Source of the DNA: an uncultured Candidatus Saccharibacteria bacterium
GTDB taxonomy: Bacteria > Patescibacteriota > CPR2 > UBA1875 > CAIMLA01
Reading direction: 5' to 3'
Assembly (NCBI GenBank): GCA_964594415.1
Contig: CAZQLQ010000001.1
Span: 28,850 to 92,849 of the forward strand
Length of the DNA: 64,000 nt
Position numbers and translations under genes: made by a program. How positions within the stretch are numbered: the stretch's first letter is position 1; each line of letters starts with the position of its first letter. Below are positions 4,332-63,108 of the stretch, in pieces. The notes beneath the pieces are model-generated. The model was not told where the DNA came from. It worked only from the letters and a program-made list of their open reading frames with translations, and did no database searches.

Positions 4332-4721
4332 TTATTTTTGTTTTTTCTCGTAATAATCGAGAAGTTCTTTTACTCTAACTGCGACTTCGAGCGGGGTAAG
4401 TTCGGACTTGATCAGATACTCTGTTGCCCCCAGTTTATATATCTGTTCTGCGGTTTTTTCATCTGCAAGGTTGGTAAGAACAATTACTAAAAGTTCACTT
4501 AGCTCAGGATCTTGCTTCACCTGCCTTAGTACTTCAAAACCATCAACCAGTGGCATCATTATATCGAGTAGTAAGACATCGGGTTGAATCCTTTTTATTT
4601 CGTCTAATGCGCTTTGACCATCCTCTACCGAGAAAACTTCAAACCCCTCCAATCCAAATTTTAGTTTATACATATCTAGAAGTTGGATATCATCTTCAGC
4701 TATCAATATCTTTGTTGCCAT
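4332..4721 (-). CDS. stand-alone response regulator receiver domain (CheY-like)
   Basis: AEDD, LLDIMMP (phospho-acceptor Asp), conserved T and K positions. No output domain; 129 aa. Confidence 0.8.
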   Translation of the reverse strand: MATKILIAEDDIQLLDMYKLKFGLEGFEVFSVEDGQSALDEIKRIQPDVLLLDIMMPLVDGFEVLRQVKQDPELSELLVIVLTNLADEKTAEQIYKLGATEYLIKSELTPLEVAVRVKELLDYYEKKQK

Positions 4722-4816
4722 TGTTTCATTTTCCTCTTTTTATTATAATAATTCTATCTCAATTTAGCCGAATTACCAAGCTTTTATAAATTAAACTTTA
4801 ATTATAAGGGTCAAAT

Positions 4817-23469: not shown

Positions 23470-23482
23470 CATTGGAGTTTGT

Positions 23483-24652: not shown

Positions 24653-24702
24653 CAGAATTTTACTTTTTGAGTTATAATGAAATAAGCTTTGGAGGGTAAG
24701 TA

Positions 24703-26330: not shown

Positions 26331-26331
26331 A

Positions 26332-26895: not shown

Positions 26896-26909
26896 GAGAG
26901 ACTAGTTCT

Positions 26910-29303: not shown

Positions 29304-29318
29304 AGCTAGGGGGATTAA

Positions 29319-31783: not shown

Positions 31784-31821
31784 ACCGATTTGTGTATAAA
31801 TTAAATGGGAACTAATCTTTA

Positions 31822-38622: not shown

Positions 38623-38657
38623 TAATTCGATTAATATTATAATATTGAGGAGGGTTC

Positions 38658-39713
38658 TTGGGGGCTAATAAAAGTAATAGATTGTTACTAACAGGTAATG
38701 AAGTAGTTCTTAGGGCGGCGCTGGTTGCAGGTGCTAATTTTTTTGCTGGCTATCCAATTACGCCAACAACGGAGGTTTTGAGCGGGTGGGCAAAAGAAGC
38801 GGTTAAAAATAAAAACCTAGGTTTCCTACAGACAGAGGATGAAACAGCGGCTGGAATGGCGGTTATTGGTGCAGTATTGGCCGGAAAAAAGGCTTGGACT
38901 ACAACAGCTGGCATAGGACACGTTTTAATGCAGGATCCCTTATCTCTAGCCGAATCGCAGAGAATACCGTTTGTAGCGTATATAGGACAGCGTGGAGGGC
39001 CTTCCACAGGGACTGTTTTATTTTCTCAACAAGAGTTAACTTTGGCACGTTTTGGTGGTAATGGGGAGGGACTTAGGATAGTGTATGCGCCTTCCAATTT
39101 GCAAGAATTATATCTTCTTACACAAAAAGCTTTTAATGCAGCGTGGAAGTATAGATTCCCAACAATTATTCTTGGGGACGGCTATCTTTCCAAAACGCAA
39201 AGCGAAGTAAATGTAGAGGAGAAATTGTCTCAAGTTCAAGCTACCCCAATAGTCTTAAATGGTCCTGTAAAAAATATGCGCAATTGTTTTTCAAGAGAGG
39301 ATGAACTAGCTGACTATCTAAAGGTATTATTTAACGATTTTGCTATTGCTAGCAAAGAATTGGTTGAGTCAGAATCTTACGAAACAGCTGACGCCGAAAT
39401 TGTTGTTTTCGCGTGGGGCACAGTAGGATATGCTGCCAAAATTGCTGTCAGAAACCTAAGAAAAGAAGGGGTCAAGGCAGGTTTGTTTAGACCTATTACA
39501 ATGCGACCGTTTGATGCAGAAAATGCTATTAAATCAGTAGAAAAAGCTAAATTCGTATTGATCGTAGAATCAAGCGCCGGTCATTTTGGTAGGATTGTCA
39601 GAGAAACGCTTGCTCAATCAACCGATGCGACATTTAAAAGGTTCTATAAGCCCGTTGAAGGAATTACAACTGAAGAAATTGAAATAAAGACAAAAGAGGT
39701 TATAAATGCTTGA
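38658..39713 (+). CDS. porA: 2-oxoacid (pyruvate/ketoisovalerate):ferredoxin oxidoreductase, alpha subunit
   Basis: The transketolase-like Pyr domain and POR alpha family architecture; 351 aa. Confidence 0.8.
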   Translation: MGANKSNRLLLTGNEVVLRAALVAGANFFAGYPITPTTEVLSGWAKEAVKNKNLGFLQTEDETAAGMAVIGAVLAGKKAWTTTAGIGHVLMQDPLSLAESQRIPFVAYIGQRGGPSTGTVLFSQQELTLARFGGNGEGLRIVYAPSNLQELYLLTQKAFNAAWKYRFPTIILGDGYLSKTQSEVNVEEKLSQVQATPIVLNGPVKNMRNCFSREDELADYLKVLFNDFAIASKELVESESYETADAEIVVFAWGTVGYAAKIAVRNLRKEGVKAGLFRPITMRPFDAENAIKSVEKAKFVLIVESSAGHFGRIVRETLAQSTDATFKRFYKPVEGITTEEIEIKTKEVINA

Positions 39714-40422
39714 ACCAAGGATGCCAAAAAGCTTAAAAGTTGATTCTAAACCGAGTAACTTTTGTCCTGGTTGCGGTTATGGCTTAACTTTGAAAATTTT
39801 AGGCGAAGTAATCGATGAAATGGAAATCGCTACAAAGACTTTTATTGGTTTGGACATTGGTTGCAATCTTTTGGCTTGGGATTATTTTGACATAGATACC
39901 TTTCAGACTCATCATGGCAGGGTGACACCACTGCTCTCGGGCTATAAAAGAGCTGAAAAAGATAGTATCTCCTTGGGTATCGCTGGTGATGGCGGGCTTT
40001 ATTCTATCGGCCTTCAAAGCTTGTTACACGCTGCCCACAGAAACGAGCCAATTACAATCATTGGAGTTAACAATACTCTTTATGGTATGACAGGAGGTCA
40101 GGCTGCACCTACTACAATGCCTGGAGAAGTAACCGATACGACGCCGGGCGGAGAGTTTACCAATGAAAAACCAATTTTCGGACCTGAATTAGTGAAGGAA
40201 GTTGCTCATGAACATGCATATCTTGCAAGAGCAACCGTTTTAAACTTGCCGGGGCTTAAAATGATGATGAAAAAAGCAATTGAAGCTCAGATCAAAGGTA
40301 ATTTTGCACTTGTCGAAGTAATTTCGATGTGTCCTACCAACTGGAAAACAAATGCCGCAGAAACAATAGAGTTTGCTCGAAAAATGAGCGAGACCTTCAA
40401 AACAGGGGTAATAAATGAATAG
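39706..40422 (+). CDS. porB: 2-oxoacid:ferredoxin oxidoreductase, beta (TPP-binding) subunit
   Basis: The CPGCGY..GxDIGC TPP/Fe-S motifs (CPGCGYG, IGLDIGCN). Confidence 0.8.
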   Translation: MLEPRMPKSLKVDSKPSNFCPGCGYGLTLKILGEVIDEMEIATKTFIGLDIGCNLLAWDYFDIDTFQTHHGRVTPLLSGYKRAEKDSISLGIAGDGGLYSIGLQSLLHAAHRNEPITIIGVNNTLYGMTGGQAAPTTMPGEVTDTTPGGEFTNEKPIFGPELVKEVAHEHAYLARATVLNLPGLKMMMKKAIEAQIKGNFALVEVISMCPTNWKTNAAETIEFARKMSETFKTGVINE

Positions 40423-40984
40423 AAATAATTTTAGAATTTTAATCGCAGGTGAAGGTGGGCAAGGTGTTCAGCGTATTGCTCATGCTTTTACTCACGCAGC
40501 CTTTAATGCAAATTTGCACGTTACTTATATGCCCAATTATGGAGTTGAGCAGAGGGGCGGAGTTTCTTTGGGATTCCTTCAATACGGAGAAGAGGAGATC
40601 GGATTTCCGAAATTTTCTACTGCTGATATCCTGGTTGTTATGTGCTCTAGGGCGGTCCAGAGAACAAAACAATACATCGGAGACGACACGATTTATATTT
40701 ACGATGACGGACTTATTAAGAGCTCGGAAATTTCCGATATTACAGCTCAAAAGATCGCCATCTCAGCAACGAAAATTGCAAATGAGAAATTGACTCCCAA
40801 AACATTCAATATGATTTTGGCTGGAGCGCTTTTGTCCGAAACAGTTGGTTTGAATCTGAAGGGCATAGAGGAAGCGCTCGAAGTTGATTTTAAGGATAAG
40901 TATGTTCAGAAACCGGAAATGCGAAGTTTTAATAAAAGGGCGCTAGAATTAGGATATAAACTAGCAAAAGATGCCTACAAATAA
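40415..40984 (+). CDS. porG: 2-oxoacid:ferredoxin oxidoreductase, gamma subunit
   Basis: 189 aa with the POR gamma fold (ILIAGEGGQGVQ). Confidence 0.75.
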   Translation: MNRNNFRILIAGEGGQGVQRIAHAFTHAAFNANLHVTYMPNYGVEQRGGVSLGFLQYGEEEIGFPKFSTADILVVMCSRAVQRTKQYIGDDTIYIYDDGLIKSSEISDITAQKIAISATKIANEKLTPKTFNMILAGALLSETVGLNLKGIEEALEVDFKDKYVQKPEMRSFNKRALELGYKLAKDAYK

Positions 40985-41239: not shown

Positions 41240-41760
41240 AAATTTTCTGTCATTCTGTCCGACGACTCCAATGAGTTCGTGTCGGACTCCGTTGGAGGAC
41301 TTGTCGAGGGATCTCATTTCTATTACTTTCTCCTTGATGAGAAAGTAATCAAAGAATCAAGAAAAACTGAACTCCTTTTTAAAAAGATTATTCTTTTTTC
41401 GATATATTATAAGGTTTTCCTAGAAAGAATAACTTTTTAAAATAGTCGGTCCTCGGGACGAACAGTTTTTCAAGGGGTTTATTGTTCGAACGAATGTGAA
41501 AACTACCAGGAAAGAGAACTTCCCACTTCGTTCGAAGAATATTGTCCGAATGCAATGAGAACTGTCTTGTAACTTCTCACTCTGTTCGAAGAATATTGTT
41601 CGAGGCGAAGCCGAGAACTACTTTTTTGTCTGTCTTTTTGTCATCCTCGCCTCCCTGTCATTCTGAGCGAAGTCGAAGAATCTCAACCACTTGTCATCCT
41701 CGCGAACGCGGGGATCTATTATCCTCCTTATCACTTTCTCTTGAAATAAAGTAGCGCAAA
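41240..41760. repeat. GC-rich hairpin repeat island, same family as 420-800
   Basis: 41249-41314 is ~85% identical to 634-698. It contains hairpin units gtcattctgagcgaagtcgaagaatctc and gtcATCCTCGCGaaCGCGGGGATct. The 70-aa ORF at 41542-41754 is probably spurious. Confidence 0.6.
41358..41469 (+). repeat. 112-bp direct repeat, copy 1 (pairs with 41764-41875)
   Basis: Identical to copy 2 except for one mismatch (aact vs acct). Confidence 0.85.
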
Positions 41761-41763
41761 GTT

Positions 41764-41875
41764 CAAGAAAAACTGAACTCCTTTTTAAAAAGATTATTCT
41801 TTTTTCGATATATTATAAGGTTTTCCTAGAAAGAATACCTTTTTAAAATAGTCGGTCCTCGGGACGAACAGTTTT
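41764..41875 (+). repeat. 112-bp direct repeat, copy 2
   Basis: See copy 1. The two copies bracket the hairpin-repeat island. Confidence 0.85.
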
Positions 41876-41949
41876 CCGGGGGAATTTTTCAAAATAAATT
41901 TAATTTCGTACACTATATTAATGACTAATTTGGCGTTATAATACTTGTT

Positions 41950-44106: not shown

Positions 44107-44187
44107 GCTTTTTTCTTTACGTAGGGATAATAGATTGTTATTATCTATATTAGGTATTAGATTTTTAAAACCTTGGAGGGCAAAGGG

Positions 44188-47100
44188 TTGTTTGGATATA
44201 AATTTAATAATTTATATATAAATGCTTGTTCTAATATAAAAAATTATAAAGTTACAAAAAAGCTTGAATATCTTACGGTATTTATATTAGTTCTTAGTAT
44301 GCTTAGCTTTCAAGCATACTCATCAACAGAACTCAGGAAATATTTATTTGGTGCTGGGAATGCATTTGCTGGTATTGAAAACGTTAGCGTTGATGTTGGT
44401 GAGGAAGATACGTGCGTAGTGAGAAGTGATGGCACGGTTTGGTGTTGGGGCTGGAACATGTATGAGAACCGCCTAGGAATACCTACTGTCGAAGGGATGT
44501 TTACTAAAGACGCACTTACACCAATTCAAGTAGTGGGTCCTGGAGGTATTGGATATCTAAATAACGTCAAGACGGTAGAAATAGGAGAAGGCCATACTTG
44601 TGCTTTGAAGAATGATGGTACTGTCTGGTGTTGGGGATATAACTATGAGGGAGAACTCGGTGATAATATGAACGAAGAATATAGTCGGACGCCTGTGCAG
44701 GTTATGGGTGCCGGTGGGGTAGGATTCTTAAGTGATATTGTTGAGATAACTATAGGTTCCGATGCTTTCTCTACTTGTGCTTTGAAGAATGATGGTACTG
44801 TCTGGTGTTGGGGATATAACTGGGCTGGTGAGCTTGGAAACGGTTTGGCTGACGTTCAAAGTAATGTTCCTATCCAGGTTGTCGGTCAGGGTGGTTTGGG
44901 GTATCTAACTAATGTGCGTTCAATATCGATGGGAGAAAATACCACTTGCGCAGCAAAAAACGACGGTACCGTATGGTGTTGGGGTAGTAATTTCGGGGGC
45001 GAACTAGGAAATGGGACGGAAAGTGTTGACAGCTATACCCCGATACAGGTAGTTGGAGTTGGGGGTACGGGGTATTTGCAAAACATCAAGTCAGTCGCGC
45101 TAGATTTTTACTCTTGTGCTTTATCGAACGAAAACACGGTTTTTTGCTGGGGTTATGGTAGTGACGGCGAATTGGGGAATGGACAAAATGTTGATAGTTA
45201 TTCGCCAGTTCAAGTTCTCGGAGTAGGCGGCGACGGATATCTGACGGACGTAAAGAAAATTGGGGTCGGGCAAGGTTTTGCATGTGCTTTGAAAAATGAT
45301 GGAACAGTGAATTGCTGGGGTAGTAATTGGTTTGGAGACGGAGCGCTAGGGGATGGTACTTCAAATGACAGTAATACCCCAGTACAGGTAAAAGACCATA
45401 GCGGTAGCGGAAGTCTTACCGGAATTACTGATTTAGATGTTGGATTTGGAGGTGTTGCGTCAATTAGTAACGATGGGCGGATTTATTTGTGGGGTGATTA
45501 TACTCTTGGTAATGGTACTTGGAACACATCCTTATTGCCAACCGCGGTTTTGTATCAAGGTGAAATTACTAGCTACTTAGATAATGTAATATCTCTTAAC
45601 GTTGGCTCTAATCTTCAGTCTTGTGTAATCAAATCGGATGGTTCATTGTTATGTTGGGGCGTATCTCAATCTATTCTAGAGTCCATTTATCCGAAGAAAA
45701 TTCCAGGCCCTAACGGACTTGGATACATGGATAGTGTGAGATCGGTTGATTGGGGAAACGAACATAGTTGTGCGGTCAAAACTGATGGAACCGTATGGTG
45801 TTGGGGAACGAATGCCTATGGCCAACTAGGAGATGAAAGCTACTCGGATAGTTATACACCCGTCCAAGTGGTAGGCGTTGGAGGAACAGGTTATCTAACC
45901 GATGTAGAAACTGTAACAACTGGACGACGATTTTCTTGTGCGCTTAAAACTGATGGTACGGTTTACTGTTGGGGATGGGGGTATAGAGGTATACTAGGTA
46001 ATAATTCTACAAATAACTCAAATACACCCGTCCAGGTGGTAGGCGTTGGAGGAACAGGTTATCTGACTAATATACTTGATGTTGATACTTTTTGGTTACA
46101 TACTTGCGCAATTAGCTCAAGTGGTAGTGCATATTGTTGGGGTGACAACGCGAATTCCAAGCTAGGAGGAACTGCTAGTGCCTACAGCTCTACGCCAGTG
46201 CAAGTTTATGGTACAGGCGGTGTTGGATATCTTGGCAATATTGATAAAATCGATACCATGGTTTCTAGCTCATGTGCTACATTGAGCGATGGAACCGTTT
46301 GGTGTTGGGGATACAATGGAGGAGGTCAGTTAGGGGACAATACGACTGCTCAACGGGATTATCCAGTTCAGGTTCATGGGGTGAATAACCTAGGTTATTT
46401 GCAGAACGTTCAAGAAACTAGCGGAGGCTGGAATCATAACTGTGCACTTACATTTGACGGACTTGTATATTGTTGGGGAAGAAATCAGGAAGGAGAGCTA
46501 GGTATAAATACTATTATTAATAGCCTTACGCCAGTGCAGGTATTGGGAAATAATGGCGTTGGAGTCTTGGAAAATATTATTGAGATTTCTTCAGGATATG
46601 ATTATTCATGTGCTCTTAATAATAATGGATATGTTTATTGTTGGGGTGGTAATGACGACTACGCTCTTGGAATTGGTTGGAGCCTAGATAAGTTGGTGCC
46701 TGTACGAGTTGCTTCTGAAATAGAGATTTGCGAATTTAGTGCTCTAGGGAGCTCTCTTTGTGCAGATAGCGGATCGTCACCGCCAACCACTATCCCTCCC
46801 ACCACCACTCCTCCTACTCCAACTACAACCAAACCAAAATCATCTCCTCTAACTCCTTTTCAACCCGTAGACGAGAATATCGCAGACGAAACTACACCTA
46901 CAACCAGTACCACAACCACGACAACCAGAGAAGAAACAGCAGAAAAGTCAAACTCTTCTTCGGAGAGCGATTCAGATAATAATAATCATGACGGATTCTT
47001 TAAAACCATTAAATCCTATGTCGTAGCTTTTCTTTCTACCTCATCCGATGCAATAGCTAAAGTAAACTACAAGATAACCTCATACTTCACTTCTTCAAAG

Positions 47101-48414
47101 GGTCTTGGTAACTTTTTGGGGATGGTTCCTCCTGCCCTAGCCAGAGTGTTCCCTTGGCTACTTTTCGCCCTCCTTATCTATCTTATCCGCAGATTAATCA
47201 AACAAACCAAGGAAGAAGGTAAGAACGCTCAAGAGATGATAAAGCTTATCGATCTCGAGAAAGCTATCGGAGTCCAGAAAGAAAACTTCGTCAGATTATC
47301 TTCTCATTACCTAAGAACCCCGTTAACAATCATCTCTACTGGCATTGATCTTATGTTTACCCTGGATAAAGTTGAGAAAGAAAAGCAAACCGACCTCTCA
47401 AACGCCCTTAAAGACCTAAATACCAAAGTAGAGGAGATCTTTTCTGATATATCCTCTAATAGATATCTAAACGAGATAACTATTCCAGATATTAAAGAGG
47501 AGAAGATCAAGATTTATGCCTCTCCTTACTTATGGCTACCGATCATCCTAATCGGAGGTATCTCCCTTCTTACCAACTACTTGTTTATCAATATCGCCAA
47601 GATTGATCTCTACACTATTAATCTTATGACCGAAGTAGCTGCCTTTCTCGTTCTTGCTCAGCTTTTCTTTTCTAACTTCAGGAAACGCCAAACCCAAAGG
47701 ATCAAGAATCAAAAATATGAGAAAGAGCTTAAGCTTCAGAAAGTCATCGATGATGCTAGAAATACCTTCATGGAGCAAGTTGCAAGGGATGTTAATGCAA
47801 AAATGATTCCGTTAGAAACCGTCCTTCCTTCGGTAGGTCAAACAGAACACAAGACTGAGATATACAAAGGCCTCTCCGACCTAAAGCAGATGATCTACAA
47901 ATTCACGCTGATTAGCAGTATCAAATCCGAAGGAGCCCTTATTAAACCGAGAGAAATTGACCTATACCGAACAGTCAACGATTATATCAAGGCTAGGCAA
48001 GAAGATATAAAGGCAAAGGGGATTAAGGTTAAACTTTCTAAATCGGACACAATCATAATAACTGACAAAGATAAGTTCTTGTTCATTATCTTCAGTATCA
48101 TCGATAACGCTATCAAGTTTTCTAAAGACAAAGGAAGCATCATTATCAACTGGGAGACAGTAGATAATCGAACTACCATAACCGTGGAAGACGACGGAAT
48201 TGGAATGACTGAAGAAGCCAAAGACCTTCTCTTTAAGCCTTTCGTTAGGGGAACATCTACCCTTAGATTTGATTATGAAGGCATGGGTACTAACCTTTAT
48301 ATCGCCAAACAGATAGCCAATTATTTAAACGGAGATATTTCCCTAGAATCAGAGATAGATAAAGGAACGAAGGTGAGTGTGGTTTCTTGTAGTTATGGTT
48401 ATAGGGTTGATTGA
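44188..48414 (+). CDS. giant sensor histidine kinase with an extracytoplasmic RCC1-repeat beta-propeller array
   Basis: A TTG start 7 nt after GGAGGG, by analogy with the paralog. A signal anchor is followed by more than 13 RCC1-like blades (GTVWCWGxNxxGELGxG...TPVQV), then a Thr/Pro linker, then TM helices. The C-terminus carries HisKA-like SSHYLRTPLTII and HATPase_c EDDGIGM..GMGTNLYIAKQI. Confidence 0.75.
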   Translation: MFGYKFNNLYINACSNIKNYKVTKKLEYLTVFILVLSMLSFQAYSSTELRKYLFGAGNAFAGIENVSVDVGEEDTCVVRSDGTVWCWGWNMYENRLGIPTVEGMFTKDALTPIQVVGPGGIGYLNNVKTVEIGEGHTCALKNDGTVWCWGYNYEGELGDNMNEEYSRTPVQVMGAGGVGFLSDIVEITIGSDAFSTCALKNDGTVWCWGYNWAGELGNGLADVQSNVPIQVVGQGGLGYLTNVRSISMGENTTCAAKNDGTVWCWGSNFGGELGNGTESVDSYTPIQVVGVGGTGYLQNIKSVALDFYSCALSNENTVFCWGYGSDGELGNGQNVDSYSPVQVLGVGGDGYLTDVKKIGVGQGFACALKNDGTVNCWGSNWFGDGALGDGTSNDSNTPVQVKDHSGSGSLTGITDLDVGFGGVASISNDGRIYLWGDYTLGNGTWNTSLLPTAVLYQGEITSYLDNVISLNVGSNLQSCVIKSDGSLLCWGVSQSILESIYPKKIPGPNGLGYMDSVRSVDWGNEHSCAVKTDGTVWCWGTNAYGQLGDESYSDSYTPVQVVGVGGTGYLTDVETVTTGRRFSCALKTDGTVYCWGWGYRGILGNNSTNNSNTPVQVVGVGGTGYLTNILDVDTFWLHTCAISSSGSAYCWGDNANSKLGGTASAYSSTPVQVYGTGGVGYLGNIDKIDTMVSSSCATLSDGTVWCWGYNGGGQLGDNTTAQRDYPVQVHGVNNLGYLQNVQETSGGWNHNCALTFDGLVYCWGRNQEGELGINTIINSLTPVQVLGNNGVGVLENIIEISSGYDYSCALNNNGYVYCWGGNDDYALGIGWSLDKLVPVRVASEIEICEFSALGSSLCADSGSSPPTTIPPTTTPPTPTTTKPKSSPLTPFQPVDENIADETTPTTSTTTTTTREETAEKSNSSSESDSDNNNHDGFFKTIKSYVVAFLSTSSDAIAKVNYKITSYFTSSKGLGNFLGMVPPALARVFPWLLFALLIYLIRRLIKQTKEEGKNAQEMIKLIDLEKAIGVQKENFVRLSSHYLRTPLTIISTGIDLMFTLDKVEKEKQTDLSNALKDLNTKVEEIFSDISSNRYLNEITIPDIKEEKIKIYASPYLWLPIILIGGISLLTNYLFINIAKIDLYTINLMTEVAAFLVLAQLFFSNFRKRQTQRIKNQKYEKELKLQKVIDDARNTFMEQVARDVNAKMIPLETVLPSVGQTEHKTEIYKGLSDLKQMIYKFTLISSIKSEGALIKPREIDLYRTVNDYIKARQEDIKAKGIKVKLSKSDTIIITDKDKFLFIIFSIIDNAIKFSKDKGSIIINWETVDNRTTITVEDDGIGMTEEAKDLLFKPFVRGTSTLRFDYEGMGTNLYIAKQIANYLNGDISLESEIDKGTKVSVVSCSYGYRVD
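46811..48385 (+). repeat. 1575-bp block nucleotide-identical to 61523-63097 (linker, TM and kinase module of both RCC1 kinases)
   Basis: Identical protein translations are seen on three independent frames (track ORFs 47307/47548/47982 equal 62019/62260/62694). The offset is constant at 14712 bp. Identity breaks after 'gtgagtgtggttt'. Confidence 0.85.
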
Positions 48415-48466
48415 CAAAGAACAAAAACGAATCTACAATATTTTTGTCAAAGAGATTTTAATTTAG

Positions 48467-49669
48467 ATGAATATACTACTAAATACGAGGGACCTGTTAA
48501 ACGGGATTTTTGGACGTAAGAATTTCCAGTTCACTTTTTATTTATTGGCCTTTTTTATTATGATACTTGGTGCTAAAGGTGCATATAGCGACAGTTTTGT
48601 CGCTGTTGTTAATACTCCTGTAATTATTAAATATGACGATAAAAAAATTGATTTCGTATCAACGCAAAATACAGTAGGGGGTGCTATCCGTCAAAGCGGG
48701 ATAATATTTGGGGAGTACGATATTACCGAACCGCCCGTTGAATCAATTTTAACTGGAAAGAAAACTGAAATTAGGGTTATTCGAGCCGTACCAGTTCTCA
48801 TATCCGATAACAATCAGGAGCACATTGCTTATTCGGCATATTCTGAACCTAGCGAAATTTTAAAACAGTTGGATATTAATTTTTATCCAGAAGACAAAAT
48901 TTCTGCAGAGTTAATCCTTGATCCTGCTGAGTATAATGCAGCTGGTCAACTCCTTATTATTAAAAGAGCCCCCTCATACAAAGTAAATGTTGATGATGAA
49001 ACTAAGACTATTCGTAGTTGGGGTGGTACTATAGGAGATGTTTTATCTGATGGCCAAATATCTCTTGGCCAGAGGGACATCATCGAGCCTACGACAGAAT
49101 TAAGTTCATATAATATTTTAGAAATAAATATAACAAGGGTCAACACGGCAGACGTATGGGAAGAAAATATAATACCCTTCAGCACTATAACACAAAAAGA
49201 CTATAACATGTTCGAAGGACAAACCAGGATAACTCAAGAAGGAGTGAACGGTTCAAAAAAAGAGTTGATACATATTGTTTACCATAACGGCGTTGAAGTG
49301 GATAGAAGTGTAGTCTCTTCAGAGACAATCTCTTCGCCGACTACAGAAATTGTTATAAAGGGAGTGAAGCCCTATAATGCTGGGATGTGGTGGGATACGA
49401 TTGTTGCAGCAAGTAATATATATGGTGTTGATCCCTCTAAAATGTATAAAGTTATGATTTGTGAAAGCCATGGAAATCCCAATGCAGGGACATATTACAA
49501 AGGGTTATATCAATATTCCGCGAGTACGTGGGCAGGTGCTAGTAGCTTGTATCCTGGAGGAGTATATGCGGGAGCCGCGATTACTGACGGAACGGCTCAG
49601 ATATACGTAACAGCATGGAAAGTATCAAAGCAAGGCTGGAGTGCTTGGCCAACCTGTGGGTATATGTAG
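48467..49669 (+). CDS. RpfB-like protein (DUF348, G5, and Rpf/transglycosylase-like domain)
   Basis: An N-terminal TM, a DUF348-like segment, a G5-like segment, and a C-terminal ICESHGNPNAGTYYKGLYQYSASTWAGA. The last matches the Rpf signature CESGGNW..YYGGLQFS.STW. Confidence 0.6.
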   Translation: MNILLNTRDLLNGIFGRKNFQFTFYLLAFFIMILGAKGAYSDSFVAVVNTPVIIKYDDKKIDFVSTQNTVGGAIRQSGIIFGEYDITEPPVESILTGKKTEIRVIRAVPVLISDNNQEHIAYSAYSEPSEILKQLDINFYPEDKISAELILDPAEYNAAGQLLIIKRAPSYKVNVDDETKTIRSWGGTIGDVLSDGQISLGQRDIIEPTTELSSYNILEINITRVNTADVWEENIIPFSTITQKDYNMFEGQTRITQEGVNGSKKELIHIVYHNGVEVDRSVVSSETISSPTTEIVIKGVKPYNAGMWWDTIVAASNIYGVDPSKMYKVMICESHGNPNAGTYYKGLYQYSASTWAGASSLYPGGVYAGAAITDGTAQIYVTAWKVSKQGWSAWPTCGYM

Positions 49670-58695: not shown

Positions 58696-61600
58696 GTGCT
58701 GTCAATTAAGCCCAGACTGGCTAGTTTATATAAGAAAAAATGTTCTGATATAAAAGATTTTAAAGTTACTAAAAAATTTGAATATTTTGTATTTTTTGCT
58801 TTTTTTATCAGTTTGTTAAGTTCTCAAGCTTATTTACCTGCAATCTTAAAATCTGATCTGCTCAAGATAAAAACTGTTCTTGCTGACGGAACGCCTGTTC
58901 AAGTTTCTGCTGGTAATGGTCATGCCTGCATTGTCAAAAGCGATGGAACTGTCTGGTGTTGGGGGGCAAATTATTATGGACAGTTAGGTGATAGTACGGA
59001 TGAGACTCGACATACCCCCATCCAGGTTGTTGGAGTGGGTGGAATCGGATTTTTGACAGACATCGTTGCTGTAAATGCTGGATGGCAGCACACTTGTGGA
59101 CTTAAAAATGACGGAACTGTTTATTGCTGGGGAGATAATGCGGATGGAGAACTTGGAAACAATGATTATACAGATAGTTATGTTCCTGTTCAGGTACTAG
59201 GAGTTGGCGGAACAGGATTTCTAAATGATATTAAGGCTATCGGAGCCGGGTACAATGACTCTTGTGCACTAACAAACAGTGGCTTGATGTATTGTTGGGG
59301 AGATAATGCGGATGGCCAGTTAGGGGACAATTCAACGACTGGAAGCCCTGTTCCTGTACAGGTGGTAGGTGCCGGAGGCGCAGGATTTCTAAATGATATT
59401 AGTAAGATTGAGCTTGGTCTTGGTCATGCATGTGCGGTTAAGAATGACGGAACGGCTTATTGTTGGGGGGATAGTTATACCCCTTTGGGTGACGGCACTT
59501 CGAATAGTAGTCAAGTCCCTGTACAGGTGGTAGGCGTTGGCGGAGTCGGGTTCTTAAGCAATATAGCAGATATTACTACGGACGACGGTTTTTCGTGCGC
59601 TTTAACAAATGATGGCTATGTATATTGTTGGGGGGATAACGGTGATGGCCAACTTGGAGATGGTAATGGCGGAACTTACGGGGATGAATCACTTACTCCT
59701 GTTCAGGTTCTTGGTGTGGGAGGTGTGGGGCTTCTCTCAAATATTCAGCACATAAGCAATGGAACTATGCATGCCTGTGCATTAGACTCAGGAGGTAATG
59801 TATATTGTTGGGGATGGAAAGAAGAAACTGGCACTAATGACGGTTCCTGGGATCCGCAAACTACACCAATACAGACACATGGCTTAGAAGATGTAGGGTT
59901 TCTATCGGATATCTTTACTTTCGCCGCAGGAGATTATTTTACTGTAGCAATTGATACAGCCGGAACTGTATATAGTTGGGGTGAAAATTATGAAGGGGAT
60001 CTCGGTGATTGGACCGAAGTTGATAGATATGTTCCTGTTAAGGTGGTCTCAAGTGCTTCCTCGGCTGGGTATCTAGATAATGTCGTAGGCGTTGGGACGG
60101 CTGATGATGGATCCTGTATTATTAAGGATGACGGAACAGTTTGGTGCTGGGGGAATGGCGAACCCGTGCCTGTCCAATTGAGGGGACCAGGAGGAGTGGG
60201 TTTCTTTGAGGATGCCGTTTCGATTAGCAAAAGTGCAATGGGTAATCATTTTTGTGTTGTTAAAAGCGACGGAACGGTATGGTGTTGGGGGAGTAACTCA
60301 GATGGACAACTCGGTGATGGTACAACAACAAGTAGCTATGATTATCCTATACAAGTTGTCGGAGAAGGTGGTGTGGGGTATTTGACAGATGTTAAGATGG
60401 TCTCGGGTGCGTATTTCGGTACTTGTGCTCTTAAAAATGATGGTACGGTGTGGTGCTGGGGGTATAATGGCGGCGGTGCATTAGGAAATAACAGCACTAC
60501 TGATGTGTATACTCCGGTGCAAGTACATGGAGTTAATGACGTCGGATTTTTAACTGACATAAAATATATTTCAACTGGCGGATATCACGGCTGTGCAATA
60601 AAAACGGATGATTCTCTATACTGTTGGGGAAGTAATAGTAGCGGTCAACTTGGTGATAATACGACTTTAAATAAATTGACTCCCATCCAAGTCTTAGGAG
60701 CTGGCGGCATTGGTAATCTTACCGATGTCAGAAGCGTGGCGATGGGGTGGCTGCATACATGCGCTTCAAAAAACGACGGTACTGCTTATTGTTGGGGGAG
60801 AAATTATGCGGGTCAAGTCGGCAATGGCGTAATCGGCGGATTCGGTTCTCATGTAGATGCTCCTAGCCAAGTTATAGGAGTAGGAGGGGTAGGATATTTA
60901 ACAGGCGTTGATACGGTAGCAGCATCCAGAGACGGGTCTTATGCTAAGATGCTTGATGATACGGCGTTTTATTGGGGAGGTACCCCTACACAGCGTTCAG
61001 GTGTTGAAGACGAGCAGTATCTTGTTAATGTTGCTGATATTGCAGGAGGTTATTCGCATCTAGTTTCTCTTTTGAATGACGGAACGGTATATTGTACGGG
61101 TTGGGGTAGTGGTAACGGATGGGACAGCGATTCTTTGGTTTGGTCAGGTATTAATGCATGTTATTTCAATGCCTATGGAGACCCAATTTGCTCTAGTGGT
61201 CCGTCTCCTTCACAAAGTGCTGCCAATTCTGTCATTTCAGGCAGTGAAACAGGTAACTTAGTTACGATTACTGTAACAATCCACGATACGGACGATAATC
61301 CATATACTTCAGGTGGTGACACGGTCACAGTCCTCATAACTGGAGCAAATCCATCTACTCCATCAGTAATAGATAATAGTGACGGAACCTATACTGTAAC
61401 TTATACTTCAACAAGTGACGGTACTGACATAGTAACAGCTACTTTAAACGGAGTTGCAATTGGTAATGATACCGATGGGGTAAGTGACGGAGTCTATCAT
61501 TTGAATGTTACTGCTCCTTTTTCTCCTACTCCAACTACAACCAAACCAAAATCATCTCCTCTAACTCCTTTTCAACCCGTAGACGAGAATATCGCAGACG

Positions 61601-63108
61601 AAACTACACCTACAACCAGTACCACAACCACGACAACCAGAGAAGAAACAGCAGAAAAGTCAAACTCTTCTTCGGAGAGCGATTCAGATAATAATAATCA
61701 TGACGGATTCTTTAAAACCATTAAATCCTATGTCGTAGCTTTTCTTTCTACCTCATCCGATGCAATAGCTAAAGTAAACTACAAGATAACCTCATACTTC
61801 ACTTCTTCAAAGGGTCTTGGTAACTTTTTGGGGATGGTTCCTCCTGCCCTAGCCAGAGTGTTCCCTTGGCTACTTTTCGCCCTCCTTATCTATCTTATCC
61901 GCAGATTAATCAAACAAACCAAGGAAGAAGGTAAGAACGCTCAAGAGATGATAAAGCTTATCGATCTCGAGAAAGCTATCGGAGTCCAGAAAGAAAACTT
62001 CGTCAGATTATCTTCTCATTACCTAAGAACCCCGTTAACAATCATCTCTACTGGCATTGATCTTATGTTTACCCTGGATAAAGTTGAGAAAGAAAAGCAA
62101 ACCGACCTCTCAAACGCCCTTAAAGACCTAAATACCAAAGTAGAGGAGATCTTTTCTGATATATCCTCTAATAGATATCTAAACGAGATAACTATTCCAG
62201 ATATTAAAGAGGAGAAGATCAAGATTTATGCCTCTCCTTACTTATGGCTACCGATCATCCTAATCGGAGGTATCTCCCTTCTTACCAACTACTTGTTTAT
62301 CAATATCGCCAAGATTGATCTCTACACTATTAATCTTATGACCGAAGTAGCTGCCTTTCTCGTTCTTGCTCAGCTTTTCTTTTCTAACTTCAGGAAACGC
62401 CAAACCCAAAGGATCAAGAATCAAAAATATGAGAAAGAGCTTAAGCTTCAGAAAGTCATCGATGATGCTAGAAATACCTTCATGGAGCAAGTTGCAAGGG
62501 ATGTTAATGCAAAAATGATTCCGTTAGAAACCGTCCTTCCTTCGGTAGGTCAAACAGAACACAAGACTGAGATATACAAAGGCCTCTCCGACCTAAAGCA
62601 GATGATCTACAAATTCACGCTGATTAGCAGTATCAAATCCGAAGGAGCCCTTATTAAACCGAGAGAAATTGACCTATACCGAACAGTCAACGATTATATC
62701 AAGGCTAGGCAAGAAGATATAAAGGCAAAGGGGATTAAGGTTAAACTTTCTAAATCGGACACAATCATAATAACTGACAAAGATAAGTTCTTGTTCATTA
62801 TCTTCAGTATCATCGATAACGCTATCAAGTTTTCTAAAGACAAAGGAAGCATCATTATCAACTGGGAGACAGTAGATAATCGAACTACCATAACCGTGGA
62901 AGACGACGGAATTGGAATGACTGAAGAAGCCAAAGACCTTCTCTTTAAGCCTTTCGTTAGGGGAACATCTACCCTTAGATTTGATTATGAAGGCATGGGT
63001 ACTAACCTTTATATCGCCAAACAGATAGCCAATTATTTAAACGGAGATATTTCCCTAGAATCAGAGATAGATAAAGGAACGAAGGTGAGTGTGGTTTTAA
63101 ACAAATAA
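58696..63108 (+). CDS. giant sensor histidine kinase with an RCC1-repeat beta-propeller array plus a Big-like domain (paralog of 44188-48414)
   Basis: A GTG start 7 nt after GGAGGG. An RCC1-like repeat array (GTVWCWGxNxxGQLGDG), then an Ig-like segment (TITVTIHDTDDNPYTSGGDTVTV..). The linker/TM/HisKA/HATPase module is identical to the paralog. Confidence 0.75.
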   Translation: MLSIKPRLASLYKKKCSDIKDFKVTKKFEYFVFFAFFISLLSSQAYLPAILKSDLLKIKTVLADGTPVQVSAGNGHACIVKSDGTVWCWGANYYGQLGDSTDETRHTPIQVVGVGGIGFLTDIVAVNAGWQHTCGLKNDGTVYCWGDNADGELGNNDYTDSYVPVQVLGVGGTGFLNDIKAIGAGYNDSCALTNSGLMYCWGDNADGQLGDNSTTGSPVPVQVVGAGGAGFLNDISKIELGLGHACAVKNDGTAYCWGDSYTPLGDGTSNSSQVPVQVVGVGGVGFLSNIADITTDDGFSCALTNDGYVYCWGDNGDGQLGDGNGGTYGDESLTPVQVLGVGGVGLLSNIQHISNGTMHACALDSGGNVYCWGWKEETGTNDGSWDPQTTPIQTHGLEDVGFLSDIFTFAAGDYFTVAIDTAGTVYSWGENYEGDLGDWTEVDRYVPVKVVSSASSAGYLDNVVGVGTADDGSCIIKDDGTVWCWGNGEPVPVQLRGPGGVGFFEDAVSISKSAMGNHFCVVKSDGTVWCWGSNSDGQLGDGTTTSSYDYPIQVVGEGGVGYLTDVKMVSGAYFGTCALKNDGTVWCWGYNGGGALGNNSTTDVYTPVQVHGVNDVGFLTDIKYISTGGYHGCAIKTDDSLYCWGSNSSGQLGDNTTLNKLTPIQVLGAGGIGNLTDVRSVAMGWLHTCASKNDGTAYCWGRNYAGQVGNGVIGGFGSHVDAPSQVIGVGGVGYLTGVDTVAASRDGSYAKMLDDTAFYWGGTPTQRSGVEDEQYLVNVADIAGGYSHLVSLLNDGTVYCTGWGSGNGWDSDSLVWSGINACYFNAYGDPICSSGPSPSQSAANSVISGSETGNLVTITVTIHDTDDNPYTSGGDTVTVLITGANPSTPSVIDNSDGTYTVTYTSTSDGTDIVTATLNGVAIGNDTDGVSDGVYHLNVTAPFSPTPTTTKPKSSPLTPFQPVDENIADETTPTTSTTTTTTREETAEKSNSSSESDSDNNNHDGFFKTIKSYVVAFLSTSSDAIAKVNYKITSYFTSSKGLGNFLGMVPPALARVFPWLLFALLIYLIRRLIKQTKEEGKNAQEMIKLIDLEKAIGVQKENFVRLSSHYLRTPLTIISTGIDLMFTLDKVEKEKQTDLSNALKDLNTKVEEIFSDISSNRYLNEITIPDIKEEKIKIYASPYLWLPIILIGGISLLTNYLFINIAKIDLYTINLMTEVAAFLVLAQLFFSNFRKRQTQRIKNQKYEKELKLQKVIDDARNTFMEQVARDVNAKMIPLETVLPSVGQTEHKTEIYKGLSDLKQMIYKFTLISSIKSEGALIKPREIDLYRTVNDYIKARQEDIKAKGIKVKLSKSDTIIITDKDKFLFIIFSIIDNAIKFSKDKGSIIINWETVDNRTTITVEDDGIGMTEEAKDLLFKPFVRGTSTLRFDYEGMGTNLYIAKQIANYLNGDISLESEIDKGTKVSVVLNK
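61523..63097 (+). repeat. second copy of the 1575-bp identical block
   Basis: See 46811-48385. Confidence 0.85.

What the first reader, a model, noticed from the sequence alone, without database searches (positions are those of the whole stretch)
44188..48414. Unusual domain architecture: extracytoplasmic RCC1-repeat beta-propeller fused to a transmembrane histidine kinase
More than 13 tandem RCC1-like blades (CWGxNxxGELGxG...TPVQV) follow a signal anchor. A Thr/Pro-rich (likely glycosylated) stalk comes next, then TM helices, then a HisKA-like/HATPase_c kinase. RCC1 propellers are typically protein- or ligand-binding scaffolds. As the sensor of a bacterial two-component kinase, with two large paralogs in a small-genome organism, this could be a host- or surface-sensing system. 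No cognate DNA-binding response regulator is encoded nearby.
Basis: partly seen in the sequence, partly recalled or inferred. Interest (0 to 1): 0.65.

Follow-up and report, generated by a model that had tools for sequence, protein, structure and literature searches.

The report
RCC1-propeller sensor kinase, duplicated kinase core
A small-genome (candidate-phyla-radiation type) bacterium encodes two membrane receptor kinases that each display a double RCC1 beta-propeller outside the cell. Both use a 100% identical, unusual kinase module whose phosphorylatable histidine sits on a separate helical hairpin, walled off from the ATP-binding domain by a membrane hairpin.

Summary
Window 44188-48414 (+) is one intact 1408-aa gene. 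It encodes a signal/anchor, 14 RCC1 blades (two 7-bladed propellers), a 73-aa Thr/Ser/Pro stalk and a membrane-embedded histidine-kinase module.

- The order is TM1, then a DHp hairpin with an invariant H-box (SSHYLRTPL, His1040), then a TM2-TM3 hairpin, then a second homologous DHp hairpin that has Arg where the His should be, then an intact HATPase_c domain.
- This module defines an orphan kinase family with no response regulator nearby. It is found almost only in Saccharibacteria/Patescibacteria.
- In relatives the module is joined to other ectodomains, mostly large: NHL, Kelch or Vgb-lyase propellers, InlB B-repeats, GLUG and Ig domains.
- None of 132 related loci, nor any other protein among the 262 top RCC1 hits, combines RCC1 with a kinase.

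The paralog at 58696-63108 shares a 1575-nt, 100% identical 3' module with this gene, while the ectodomains are only 42% identical.

Most likely this is a surface or host-ligand receptor kinase. It is a new variant of the known double-propeller sensor kinases, built on an undescribed duplicated-DHp core. The ligand, the partner regulator and kinase activity are all untested.

The parts
44188..48414 (+). Gene A: 1408-aa RCC1-propeller receptor histidine kinase (TTG start, RBS GGAGGG at 44176-44181)
44266..44322 (+). N-terminal signal peptide or signal anchor (KVTKK, then a hydrophobic stretch, then QAYS)
   Evidence: Read from the sequence. No dedicated predictor was run.
44365..45636 (+). RCC1 propeller 1 (blades 1-7)
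   Evidence: Pfam RCC1, RCC1_2 and WD40_RLD; blade anchors; AF2 model plus Foldseek
45637..46737 (+). RCC1 propeller 2 (blades 8-14)
   Evidence: The best WD40_RLD stretch covers aa 520-852;
46768..46986 (+). Thr/Ser/Pro-rich low-complexity stalk (aa 861-933)
   Evidence: Composition; AF2 pLDDT below 50 for model residues 801-830
46987..47130 (+). Extracellular juxtamembrane segment ending in the family motif VPPxxAxxFPW
   Evidence: Family alignment A1
47131..47199 (+). TM1 (outside to inside); in the model it continues as one helix into DHp1
   Evidence: Hydropathy, flanking charges, AF2 helix 24-101
47215..47472 (+). DHp1: a HisKA-like helical hairpin with the H-box FVRLSSHYLRTPLT. His1040 is at nt 47305-47307 and is followed by Tyr.
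   Evidence: Pfam HisKA 17.1 bits, below cut-off; alignment to the HK853 H-box; invariant across the family
47524..47676 (+). Membrane hairpin TM2 (47524-47598) and TM3 (47614-47676), with an outer loop of about 5 aa
47695..47937 (+). DHp2: a second DHp hairpin, homologous to the first and lacking His. Arg1200 (nt 47785-47787) aligns with His260 of HK853.
   Evidence: phmmer against PDB; hhalign of DHp1 against DHp2, probability 88.8%, E 2.5e-6; the position is never His in 57 sequences
47950..48387 (+). HATPase_c catalytic domain. N box N1307; G1 D1335-x-G-x-G; F box F1349/P1351/F1352; G2 G1365-x-G-x-N-L.
46811..48385 (+). Copy 1 of the 1575-nt exact direct repeat. It spans most of the stalk through the near-complete kinase module.
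   Evidence: blastn: 100% identity, 0 mismatches;
61523..63097 (+). Copy 2 of the 1575-nt exact direct repeat, inside paralog B
58696..63108 (+). Paralog B (1470 aa): about 13-14 RCC1 blades, an Ig-like domain (Invasin_D3/Big_1, aa 856-924), then the identical stalk and kinase module
   Evidence: The protein is identical to P0241, recorded from NCBI on a 234,769-bp contig.
4335..4739 (-). Stand-alone receiver domain, the only response-regulator-like gene in the window. It is a candidate phosphotransfer partner, not a demonstrated one.
   Evidence: phmmer; Pfam Response_reg E 1.5e-21; acidic pocket, Asp, Thr and Lys all present

Best explanation
Gene A, and its paralog B, is a type-I-like membrane receptor kinase of an uncultured Patescibacteria-type bacterium.

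**Shown**
- A double 7-bladed RCC1 propeller is held outside the cell on a disordered Thr/Ser/Pro stalk of about 70 aa.
- The protein then crosses the membrane three times.
- The cytoplasmic part is a duplicated kinase core: TM1-DHp1, carrying the only conserved His (His1040 in the invariant motif SHYLRTPLT), and TM3-DHp2, which has no His and carries an intact ATP-binding domain.
- The module belongs to an orphan kinase family almost confined to Saccharibacteria/Patescibacteria, in which the ectodomain is freely exchanged.

**Inferred**
- The propellers bind a surface ligand, such as a glycan or protein on a host or neighbouring cell or in the matrix.
- A disordered stalk cannot carry a piston or scissor motion. 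Occupancy is therefore more likely read out by clustering or dimerisation of receptors, or by tension on TM1.
- Either signal would reposition the TM1-DHp1 hairpin relative to the TM3-DHp2-CA unit.
- The ATP-binding domain then phosphorylates His1040. DHp1 and DHp2 may pack into a four-helix bundle within one chain, making a 'single-chain pseudo-dimer'.
- The phosphoryl group then passes to a regulator encoded elsewhere, for example the lone receiver at 4335-4739.
- Because both paralogs carry the same kinase module to the nucleotide, two different propeller sets feed one output, and the two proteins could heteromerise.

**Confidence split.** About 0.85 that the architecture and family assignment are right. 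About 0.45 that the signalling mechanism as described is right.
For: **Architecture**
- Pfam RCC1 families at E 1e-86 to 1e-118 and HATPase_c at 3e-19.
- 14 blades.
- AF2 pLDDT 88, with RCC1-like propellers as best structural matches.
- Three TM segments with positive-inside flanks: 5 and 6 Lys/Arg after TM1 and TM3.

**Duplicated DHp core**
- HK853 DHp+CA aligns to DHp2+CA, with His260 falling on Arg1200. The HK853 H-box also aligns separately to aa 1034-1047.
- The DHp1 and DHp2 profiles are homologous (hhalign probability 88.8%, E 2.5e-6).
- The AF2 model of the module (pLDDT 80, pTM 0.63) shows two long TM-to-DHp helices, each followed by a return helix, and then the CA domain.

**Signs of function**
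- The H-box block is the most conserved stretch of the module (mean column conservation 0.87, against about 0.3-0.6 in most other blocks and 0.7 at the F and G2 boxes).
- N1307, D1335, G1337, G1339, F1349/P1351/F1352 and G1365/G1367 are near-invariant.

**Family and modularity**
- 17 database relatives.
- 60 genome loci, nearly all Saccharibacteria, and 63 metagenome loci.
- Ectodomains in relatives are NHL, Kelch or Vgb-lyase propellers, Flg_new, GLUG and Ig domains.
- Forms without any ectodomain also exist (P0013-P0017).

**Orphan status**
- No receiver lies within about 6 kb in the genome loci of the kinase family.
- Only 2 receivers, both distant, occur in the 63 metagenome loci.

**Context**
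- In cultivated Saccharibacteria (TM7x), a 7-bladed RCC1 propeller sits on the type IV pilus minor pilin PilX2 (PMC11623550).
Against: - No ligand, phosphorylation or partner has been shown. Everything downstream of the anatomy is inference.
- The residue after the His is an invariant Tyr, not the Glu/Asp that HisKA kinases use in autophosphorylation (my recollection of Willett & Kirby 2012). The canonical kinase chemistry may therefore not apply.
- Pfam HisKA scores below its cut-off.
- Invariance of SHYLRTP in the scanned loci is partly built in, because that motif was the search pattern.
- The organism was not identified. The nearest enolases (62-79% identity) are unnamed, and two are labelled only '[bacterium]'.
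- The 100% identical 1575-nt repeat in what is probably a metagenome-assembled contig could have been homogenised by assembly or polishing.
Confidence: 0.55

Rival explanations
1. The protein is mainly an adhesin or surface scaffold. The RCC1 propellers attach the cell to a host or matrix. The C-terminal module serves as a membrane anchor that has lost autokinase activity. It would then be a pseudokinase, a phosphatase-only protein, or a docking or phosphotransfer (Hpt-like) unit for other kinases such as the two classical kinases at 10214-12895 and 14117-15490.
For: - The DHp next to the ATPase has no His.
- The residue after the His is Tyr instead of Glu/Asp, while Thr at +4, the residue linked to phosphatase activity, is kept (the roles of these residues come from my own knowledge).
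- No regulator lies nearby in any family locus.
- A disordered stalk is a poor conduit for allosteric signalling.
- Hundreds of related RCC1 surface proteins carry anchors other than kinases, such as T9SS, SLH and fn3.
Against: - All ATP-binding boxes (N, G1, F, G2) are near-invariant across 57 relatives.
- The H-box is the best-conserved stretch of the module. That pattern is typical of a catalytically active kinase, not of a decaying one.
- A simple anchor would not need about 420 conserved cytoplasmic residues.
Confidence: 0.2
2. The kinase is an intramembrane or complex-dependent sensor. The signal is perceived by the TM1/TM2/TM3 bundle or by a partner membrane protein, as in BceS-type kinases that work with ABC transporters. 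The ectodomain only localises or tethers the kinase and does not gate it.
For: - Family members with no ectodomain exist and keep the whole TM-DHp-TM-TM-DHp-CA core (P0013-P0017).
- Ectodomains are swapped freely.
- The stalk is disordered.
- In many Saccharibacterial relatives a MacB/FtsX-type ABC transporter sits divergently next to the kinase: the ATPase in 29 loci and the permease in 16.
- BceS is among the structural matches.
Against: - No ABC transporter flanks either window copy. The neighbours are PcrA/UvrD and an RpfB-like gene for A, and cysteine desulfurase and a ferredoxin/thioredoxin-like gene for B.
- The ABC adjacency co-occurs with a conserved SerRS neighbour, so it may simply be gene order inherited within a clade.
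- Maintaining two 800-aa ectodomains in a small genome argues that they matter for the input.
Confidence: 0.15
3. The feature is an assembly artefact. The two RCC1 genes and the kinase module were joined, or one copy was duplicated or homogenised, by mis-assembly across a repeat in a metagenome bin. At least one RCC1-kinase fusion would then not exist in the cell.
For: - The two genes share 1575 nt at 100% identity with sharp boundaries, while the ectodomains are only 42% identical.
- The source contig is 234,769 bp and probably comes from a MAG.
- The RCC1 + kinase fusion was found in no other genome or metagenome locus.
Against: - Both genes read in frame through both junctions as single ORFs of 1408 and 1470 aa.
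- The 5' junction falls in the stalk, exactly where relatives join their own ectodomains to the same module.
- Neither the module nor any relative has a start of its own without a preceding TM and juxtamembrane motif.
- Both copies sit on one contig with unique housekeeping flanks.
- Even if one copy were collapsed, the other fusion would remain.
Confidence: 0.07

Closest known systems
Double beta-propeller sensor kinases: Bacteroides hybrid two-component systems (BT4663, BT3334) and the Clostridium perfringens orphan kinase ReeS (PMC3762733; Menke et al. 2010, cited there)
   Same: - Two tandem beta-propellers form an extracytoplasmic sensor N-terminal to a transmembrane histidine kinase.
- The gene does not pair with an adjacent separate regulator.
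- The presumed ligands are surface or extracellular glycans.
   Different: - The propellers here are RCC1-type, not Reg_prop with Y_Y_Y.
- There is no fused receiver or AraC output.
- A long disordered stalk separates the sensor from the membrane.
- The kinase core is duplicated: DHp1 with His, a TM hairpin, then DHp2 without His.
Canonical HisKA-type kinases, e.g. Thermotoga maritima HK853 (PDB 2C2A, 3DGE)
   Same: - The ATP-binding boxes are conserved.
- The H-box motif SH-LRTPL is recognisably HisKA-like.
   Different: - The His is not on the DHp attached to the CA domain. It is on an upstream duplicate, separated by two TM helices.
- The residue after the His is Tyr, not Glu.
- The G2 box is GxGxN/S-L.
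- No cognate regulator is adjacent.
Bacterial secreted or surface RCC1-repeat proteins (COG5184 'alpha-tubulin suppressor-like'), including CPR proteins and the TM7x pilin PilX2
   Same: - The ectodomain is 41-45% identical to tandem 14-blade RCC1 proteins from Moranbacteria, Parcubacteria and others.
- The same blade motif is present (CWGxNxxGQLG...PV.V).
   Different: Those proteins end in T9SS, SLH, fn3, Flg_new or pilin modules. Apart from paralog B itself, none of the 262 best hits carries a kinase domain.
Receptor Ser/Thr kinase PknD of Mycobacterium tuberculosis, with an extracellular NHL beta-propeller (from my own knowledge; not re-read here)
   Same: A single-pass receptor kinase with an extracellular beta-propeller sensor. 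Relatives of the present kinase module also carry NHL propellers.
   Different: The kinase class differs (Hanks-type against histidine kinase), as do the propeller family and the membrane topology.
Non-canonical histidine kinases: monomeric HWE/HisKA_2 kinases such as EL346 (PDB 4R3A; PMC10359499) and DivL (PDB 4Q20)
   Same: - They are precedents for kinases that depart from the symmetric homodimer or from a His on the CA-proximal DHp.
- Both appear among the structural matches.
   Different: - EL346 is soluble, has a single DHp-like domain and belongs to a different family.
- DivL replaces the His with Tyr and has no second DHp.
- Neither has a TM hairpin between a His-bearing DHp and a His-less DHp.

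Membership tests
RCC1-like beta-propeller (Pfam RCC1 PF00415, RCC1_2 PF13540, WD40_RLD PF25390) | Tandem blades of about 50-60 aa that match the family profiles above the curated thresholds | tested here: met
   RCC1 285 bits (cut-off 21.7), RCC1_2 288.5 bits (cut-off 22), WD40_RLD 397 bits (cut-off 150); 14 blades
RCC1-like beta-propeller (Pfam RCC1 PF00415, RCC1_2 PF13540, WD40_RLD PF25390) | Seven-bladed propeller fold | tested here: met
   The AF2 model (pLDDT 88) has 14 four-stranded blades. The best Foldseek matches are UVR8, RPGR-RLD, HERC1/2-RLD and RCC1, with TMt 0.8-0.87, each covering about half of the model. This is a predicted structure, not a solved one.
RCC1-like beta-propeller (Pfam RCC1 PF00415, RCC1_2 PF13540, WD40_RLD PF25390) | Guanine-nucleotide exchange or another defined RCC1 activity | not testable with these tools
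   This is not expected for an extracellular bacterial domain. The ligand is unknown.
HisKA-type (class I) sensor histidine kinase | HATPase_c domain with N, G1, F and G2 boxes | tested here: met
   HATPase_c 69.8 bits (cut-off 26.4). N1307, DxGxG 1335-1339, F1349/P1351/F1352 and GxG 1365-1367 are conserved in 55-56 of 57 relatives, except G1339 (52 of 57).
HisKA-type (class I) sensor histidine kinase | Phospho-acceptor His on the DHp helix directly N-terminal to the catalytic domain | tested here: not met
   His260 of HK853 aligns with Arg1200. This position is never His in 57 family sequences.
HisKA-type (class I) sensor histidine kinase | A HisKA domain with an H-box somewhere in the protein | tested here: inconclusive
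   Pfam HisKA scores 17.1 bits against a cut-off of 26.9 at aa 1036-1093. However, FVRLSSHYLRTPLT aligns with the HK853 H-box, and the DHp1 and DHp2 profiles are homologous.
HisKA-type (class I) sensor histidine kinase | Acidic residue (Glu/Asp) immediately after the His, and Thr/Asn at +4 | tested here: not met
   The motif is H-Y-L-R-T. Tyr at +1 is invariant and Thr at +4 is present. The roles of these residues come from my own knowledge.
HisKA-type (class I) sensor histidine kinase | Cognate response regulator encoded next to the kinase | tested here: not met
   The only receiver in the window is 40 kb away. No receiver lies within about 6 kb in the genome loci of the kinase family, and only two distant ones occur in the 63 metagenome loci.
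HisKA-type (class I) sensor histidine kinase | ATP-dependent autophosphorylation and phosphotransfer | not testable with these tools
   This needs biochemistry.
Bacteroides-type hybrid two-component system / Reg_prop double-propeller sensors | Reg_prop (PF07494) propeller repeats plus a Y_Y_Y domain | tested here: not met
   Gene A and paralog B give no Reg_prop or Y_Y_Y hit. One relative (L047) has Vgb_lyase and Reg_prop hits.
Bacteroides-type hybrid two-component system / Reg_prop double-propeller sensors | Receiver and AraC DNA-binding output fused in the same protein | tested here: not met
   The protein ends 8 aa after the HATPase_c domain.
Saccharibacteria/Patescibacteria 'SHYLRTP' orphan kinase family (undescribed, defined here) | Juxtamembrane VPPxxAxxFP(W/Y), TM1, SHYLRTPLT H-box hairpin, TM2, TM3, His-less DHp, CA | tested here: met
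   The module aligns over its full length with 17 database proteins (E 1e-29 to 1e-140) and with more than 100 loci. The nearest are 53-55% identical.

The most novel reading that the evidence does not exclude
The C-terminal module is a new kind of histidine-kinase core, a single-chain 'pseudo-dimer'.
- A tandem duplication of the TM-helix-plus-DHp unit lets DHp1 (with His, without CA) and DHp2 (with CA, without His) form the four-helix bundle within one polypeptide.
- Autophosphorylation is therefore obligatorily asymmetric: one His and one ATP site per chain.
- It is gated by the relative movement of TM1 against the TM2/TM3 hairpin.

Patescibacteria would use this core as a universal output socket. 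Interchangeable, mostly large ectodomains (RCC1, NHL, Kelch, Vgb-lyase, InlB-repeat, GLUG) are plugged into it to read host-cell surfaces. Gene conversion would keep the sockets of paralogs identical.
Probability: 0.3. Interest if true: 0.75.

Novelty: new variant of a known kind. Interest (0 to 1): 0.55.

Why it matters
Cultivated Patescibacteria live attached to other microbes, and how they sense or choose a host surface is largely unknown. A lineage-specific receiver-less kinase family that displays swappable, mostly large binding domains is an obvious candidate for that sensing.

The RCC1 version is notable because an RCC1 propeller also decorates a Saccharibacterial type IV pilus component (PMC11623550).

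The family is also of interest to two-component-system research. The phospho-acceptor hairpin and the ATPase-bearing hairpin are separate, homologous units split by a membrane hairpin. That arrangement bears directly on long-standing questions:
- cis versus trans autophosphorylation;
- kinase asymmetry;
- how transmembrane helix movements gate the DHp bundle.

The 1575-nt perfect identity between two otherwise diverged paralogs is a clean example of module-level concerted evolution, provided the assembly is correct.

Tried and rejected
**Searches that gave nothing**
1. Exact look-ups of gene A, MetRS and paralog B in the contig index all returned nothing. Only the cluster table shows paralog B, as an unnamed NCBI protein on a 234,769-bp contig. 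The source organism could not be named.
2. The enolase homolog search meant to name the taxon gave unnamed relatives at 62-79% identity, two of them labelled only '[bacterium]'. It shows that the nearest relatives are uncultured and unclassified, some of them on contigs of 0.72-0.85 Mb.
3. The representative-library search used 7 blades plus the kinase module as query. It was swamped by giant multi-RCC1 proteins. Only paralog B itself matched the kinase part. It therefore cannot exclude rarer RCC1-kinase fusions below the top 150.
4. The afdb50 fold search of the kinase model was unavailable.
5. Literature searches for RCC1 + histidine kinase, for Saccharibacteria two-component systems and for tandem-DHp kinases found nothing on this family.

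**Ideas rejected**
6. The PQQ, BNR or WD40 alternatives for the repeats are rejected, because the RCC1 profiles and RCC1-like folds win by a wide margin.
7. DNA-level tandem repeats were checked. TRF finds none, and blade DNA copies are 61-89% identical. The blades are old protein repeats, not a recent expansion.
8. A conserved functional neighbour was looked for. A MacB-type ABC transporter is adjacent in a Saccharibacterial subclade, but it co-occurs with a syntenic SerRS and is absent from the window. It was not adopted.
9. The idea that recombination between the two direct repeats acts as a switch is rejected. It would delete 14.7 kb of housekeeping genes (KsgA, RsmI, MetRS, TatD and others).

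Full report

Yes. The + strand carries one uninterrupted ORF, 44173-48414. A GGAGGG site at 44176-44181 lies 7 nt upstream of TTG 44188.

Pfam assigns the N-terminal 850 aa to the RCC1 families with overwhelming scores: WD40_RLD 1.2e-118, RCC1_2 2.2e-88 in 12 stretches, RCC1 1.8e-86. It finds HATPase_c at the C-terminus (3.4e-19). It reports only a sub-threshold HisKA hit at aa 1036-1093 (17.1 bits against a cut-off of 26.9).

A blade-anchor motif (DGTVxCWG) occurs 14 times at a period of about 56 aa. An AlphaFold2 model of aa 46-875, built on a 40-sequence alignment, reaches pLDDT 88 and shows 14 four-stranded blades. Foldseek against the PDB ranks UVR8, the RPGR, HERC1 and HERC2 RCC1-like domains and RCC1 itself first. 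Each covers about half of the model, with TM-scores normalised to the target of up to 0.87. The ectodomain is therefore two seven-bladed RCC1-type propellers.

Residues 861-933 are 29% Thr, 16% Ser and 16% Pro. Where the model covers this stretch, it is predicted to be disordered.

**2. The kinase part is not what it first seems.**

Hydropathy finds three membrane segments after the stalk: about 982-1004, 1113-1137 and 1143-1163. The flanks follow the positive-inside rule. There are 5 Lys/Arg just after TM1 and 6 just after TM3, and the TM2-TM3 loop is about 5 residues. This places the propellers outside and both inter-TM soluble segments inside.

A phmmer search of the module against PDB sequences aligns the whole DHp+CA core of Thermotoga HK853 (3DGE/2C2A) to aa about 1170-1400. 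The phospho-acceptor His260 of HK853 falls on Arg1200 (FMEQVARDV). The HK853 H-box aligns a second time, separately, to aa 1034-1047 (FVRLSSHYLRTPLT), which lies between TM1 and TM2.

Profile-profile comparison of the two regions across 57 family sequences shows that they are homologous hairpins (hhalign probability 88.8%, E 2.5e-6, 66 columns). The His of the first sits over the non-His position of the second.

The AF2 model of the module (pLDDT 80, pTM 0.63, 18-sequence alignment) shows, in order:
- one continuous helix from TM1 into DHp1 alpha-1 (model residues 24-101), followed by a return helix;
- TM2;
- one continuous helix from TM3 into DHp2 alpha-1 (183-257), followed by a return helix;
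- an alpha/beta CA domain.

**3. It belongs to a lineage-specific family.**

The module retrieves 17 full-length relatives (E 1e-29 to 1e-140) whose only precomputed Pfam domains are HATPase_c and, in a few, HisKA.

In their alignment the string L-x-S-H-Y-L-R-T-P is invariant. The second DHp never has a His, and the N, G1, F and G2 boxes are kept. The H-box block is the most conserved part of the module (0.87 mean column conservation). Part of that is built in for the scanned loci, because the motif was the scan pattern.

A scan of one genome per GTDB species found 60 loci, nearly all labelled Candidatus Saccharibacteria, Saccharimonadales or Saccharimonadia, or 'Patescibacteria group'. The best is only 53% identical. 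A metagenome scan added 63 loci.

The window itself looks like a small fermentative genome. It carries a glycolysis block, PPDK, ADP-forming acetyl-CoA synthetase, POR and an RpfB-like gene. Its enolase has unnamed relatives at 62-79% identity (two labelled only '[bacterium]'), some of them on contigs of 0.72-0.85 Mb. 'Patescibacteria-type' is therefore a reasonable inference but not a demonstrated one.

**4. The ectodomain is a swappable cassette, and RCC1 is so far unique.**

None of the 132 related loci has RCC1 repeats in or near the kinase gene. Pfam scans of 16 long relatives show other ectodomains:
- NHL propellers with He_PIG or fn3 domains;
- a Vgb-lyase/Reg_prop propeller;
- Kelch propellers with InlB B-repeats;
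- GLUG repeats;
- Big_7 Ig domains.

The nearest relatives (53-55% identical) carry InlB B-repeat (Flg_new) domains, with Kelch propellers in one case and no Pfam-assignable ectodomain in two. Some members have no ectodomain at all (P0013-P0017).

Conversely, the RCC1 ectodomain has thousands of homologs (7840 at E<=1e-10). The best 120 are secreted or surface RCC1 proteins of Moranbacteria, Parcubacteria and many other phyla, at 41-45% identity. Neither these 120 nor the other top representatives contain a kinase domain. The only exception is P0241, which is paralog B itself.

The RCC1 + histidine-kinase fusion is thus rare or unique in what could be examined. I could not search the whole database for it.

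**5. The kinase is orphan throughout the family.**

The window holds one stand-alone receiver (4335-4739, minus strand) with intact acidic pocket, Asp, Thr and Lys. It also holds two classical kinases, at 10214-12895 and 14117-15490. It holds no DNA-binding regulator.

No receiver lies within about 6 kb of the kinase in any genome locus of the family. Only two distant ones occur in the metagenome loci.

**6. The two paralogs share a perfect 3' module.**

blastn shows that 46811-48385 and 61523-63097 are 100% identical over 1575 nt. The ectodomains are 42% identical at the protein level. The tract starts inside the stalk and ends 9 codons (gene A) or 3 codons (gene B) before the stop.

The simplest reading is recent gene conversion or module replacement, so that two sensor sets feed one output. 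Homogenisation by assembly or polishing cannot be excluded without reads. However, both genes are in frame across the junctions, and the junction position matches where relatives join their own ectodomains.

**7. Proposed mechanism.**

Shown: an extracellular double RCC1 propeller on a disordered stalk; three TM helices; one conserved His on DHp1; an intact ATP-binding domain on the His-less DHp2; no adjacent regulator.

Inferred:
- The propellers bind a surface ligand.
- A disordered stalk of about 70 aa cannot transmit a piston or scissor motion, so the signal is more likely receptor clustering or tension acting on TM1.
- This shifts TM1-DHp1 relative to TM3-DHp2-CA and allows phosphorylation of His1040.
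- The phosphoryl group then goes to a distant receiver.

The invariant Tyr after the His, where Glu/Asp is usual, is a real caveat for canonical autokinase chemistry. It sustains the rival view that the module is a phosphatase, a phosphotransfer unit or a scaffold.

**8. Comparison with known systems.**

Functionally the closest are the double-propeller sensor kinases: the Bacteroides hybrid two-component systems BT4663 and BT3334, and the C. perfringens orphan kinase ReeS (PMC3762733, which cites Menke et al. 2010 for the double propeller). Receptor kinases with propeller ectodomains, such as PknD, are also close (from my own knowledge). It is not a member of the hybrid two-component family, because it has no Reg_prop or Y_Y_Y domain, no receiver and no AraC domain.

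It is a HisKA-like kinase by homology, but it fails the defining arrangement of 'His on the CA-proximal DHp'. RCC1 propellers are already known on Saccharibacterial surfaces, for example the PilX2 pilin of TM7x (PMC11623550). I found no paper describing this kinase family or a tandem DHp split by a membrane hairpin. The library is incomplete, so this is absence of evidence only.

**9. Verdict.**

It is more interesting for its kinase core and its family context than for the RCC1 fusion itself. I rate it a new variant of a known kind, with moderate-to-good interest (0.55). About 0.3 probability attaches to the more novel reading: a single-chain pseudo-dimeric kinase core used by Patescibacteria as a universal socket for host-surface sensors.

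Noticed in passing
window 46811-48385 and 61523-63097: A 1575-nt direct repeat, 100% identical, 14.7 kb apart, forms the 3' ends of the two RCC1-kinase genes. The 5' two-thirds of the genes are only 42% identical at the protein level. This indicates gene conversion or module replacement, or homogenisation during assembly.
   Followed up: partly
window 10214-12895 (+), 12934-14139 (+), 14117-15490 (+): Two further, classical histidine kinases (HisKA_7TM+PAS+HisKA+HATPase_c, and HisKA+HATPase_c) flank a Big_13 Ig-like protein. The window thus has four kinases and only one receiver domain.
   Followed up: partly
window 4335-4739 (-): A stand-alone 128-aa receiver domain (single-domain response regulator) with all phospho-acceptor pocket residues. 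It is transcribed alone, between a thioredoxin gene and an AMP-binding enzyme gene.
   Followed up: partly
window 41342-41483 / 41748-41889, and 633-698 / 41249-41314: GC-rich intergenic repeats, 142 nt at 90% identity and 66 nt at 86% identity. They produce the 'SERSRRIS'-type spurious ORFs typical of small dispersed repeat elements. The first pair lies just upstream of the PcrA/UvrD gene that precedes gene A.
   Followed up: no
window 1364-1735 (+): A 123-aa ORF that ends in an uninterrupted run of 22 glycines.
   Followed up: no
window 48467-49669 (+), promoter-like site at 48411-48439: An RpfB-like resuscitation/muralytic protein (DUF348, G5, transglycosylase) starts 53 nt after gene A. 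The best sigma-70-like match in the region (11 of 12) overlaps the stop codon of gene A.
   Followed up: no
window 34824-35690 (+) and 55094-55927 (+): Two proteins of about 280 aa, each with a single bacterial SH3_3 domain. They are possibly cell-wall binding proteins and may be paralogs.
   Followed up: no
L005 1390-5143 and about 29 other related loci: In the Saccharibacterial relatives of about 650 aa, a MacB/FtsX-type ABC transporter sits divergently upstream of the kinase (ATPase in 29 loci, permease in 16), together with SerRS in 14 loci. This could reflect a BceS-like functional link or plain gene order inherited within a clade.
   Followed up: partly
P0013-P0017; L081, L075, L107-L121: The kinase family ranges from forms of about 420 aa with no ectodomain to proteins of more than 2400 aa that run off the fetched flanks. 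A subset of near-identical giant genes comes from one series of JGI samples (Ga02478xx).
   Followed up: partly
window 22474-33357, 36547-40984: A contiguous glycolysis block (GAPDH, PGK, TPI, class II aldolase, PPDK, enolase, iPGM, PfkB kinase), followed by ADP-forming acetyl-CoA synthetase and a pyruvate:ferredoxin oxidoreductase. This is the fermentative core typical of small CPR genomes.
   Followed up: no
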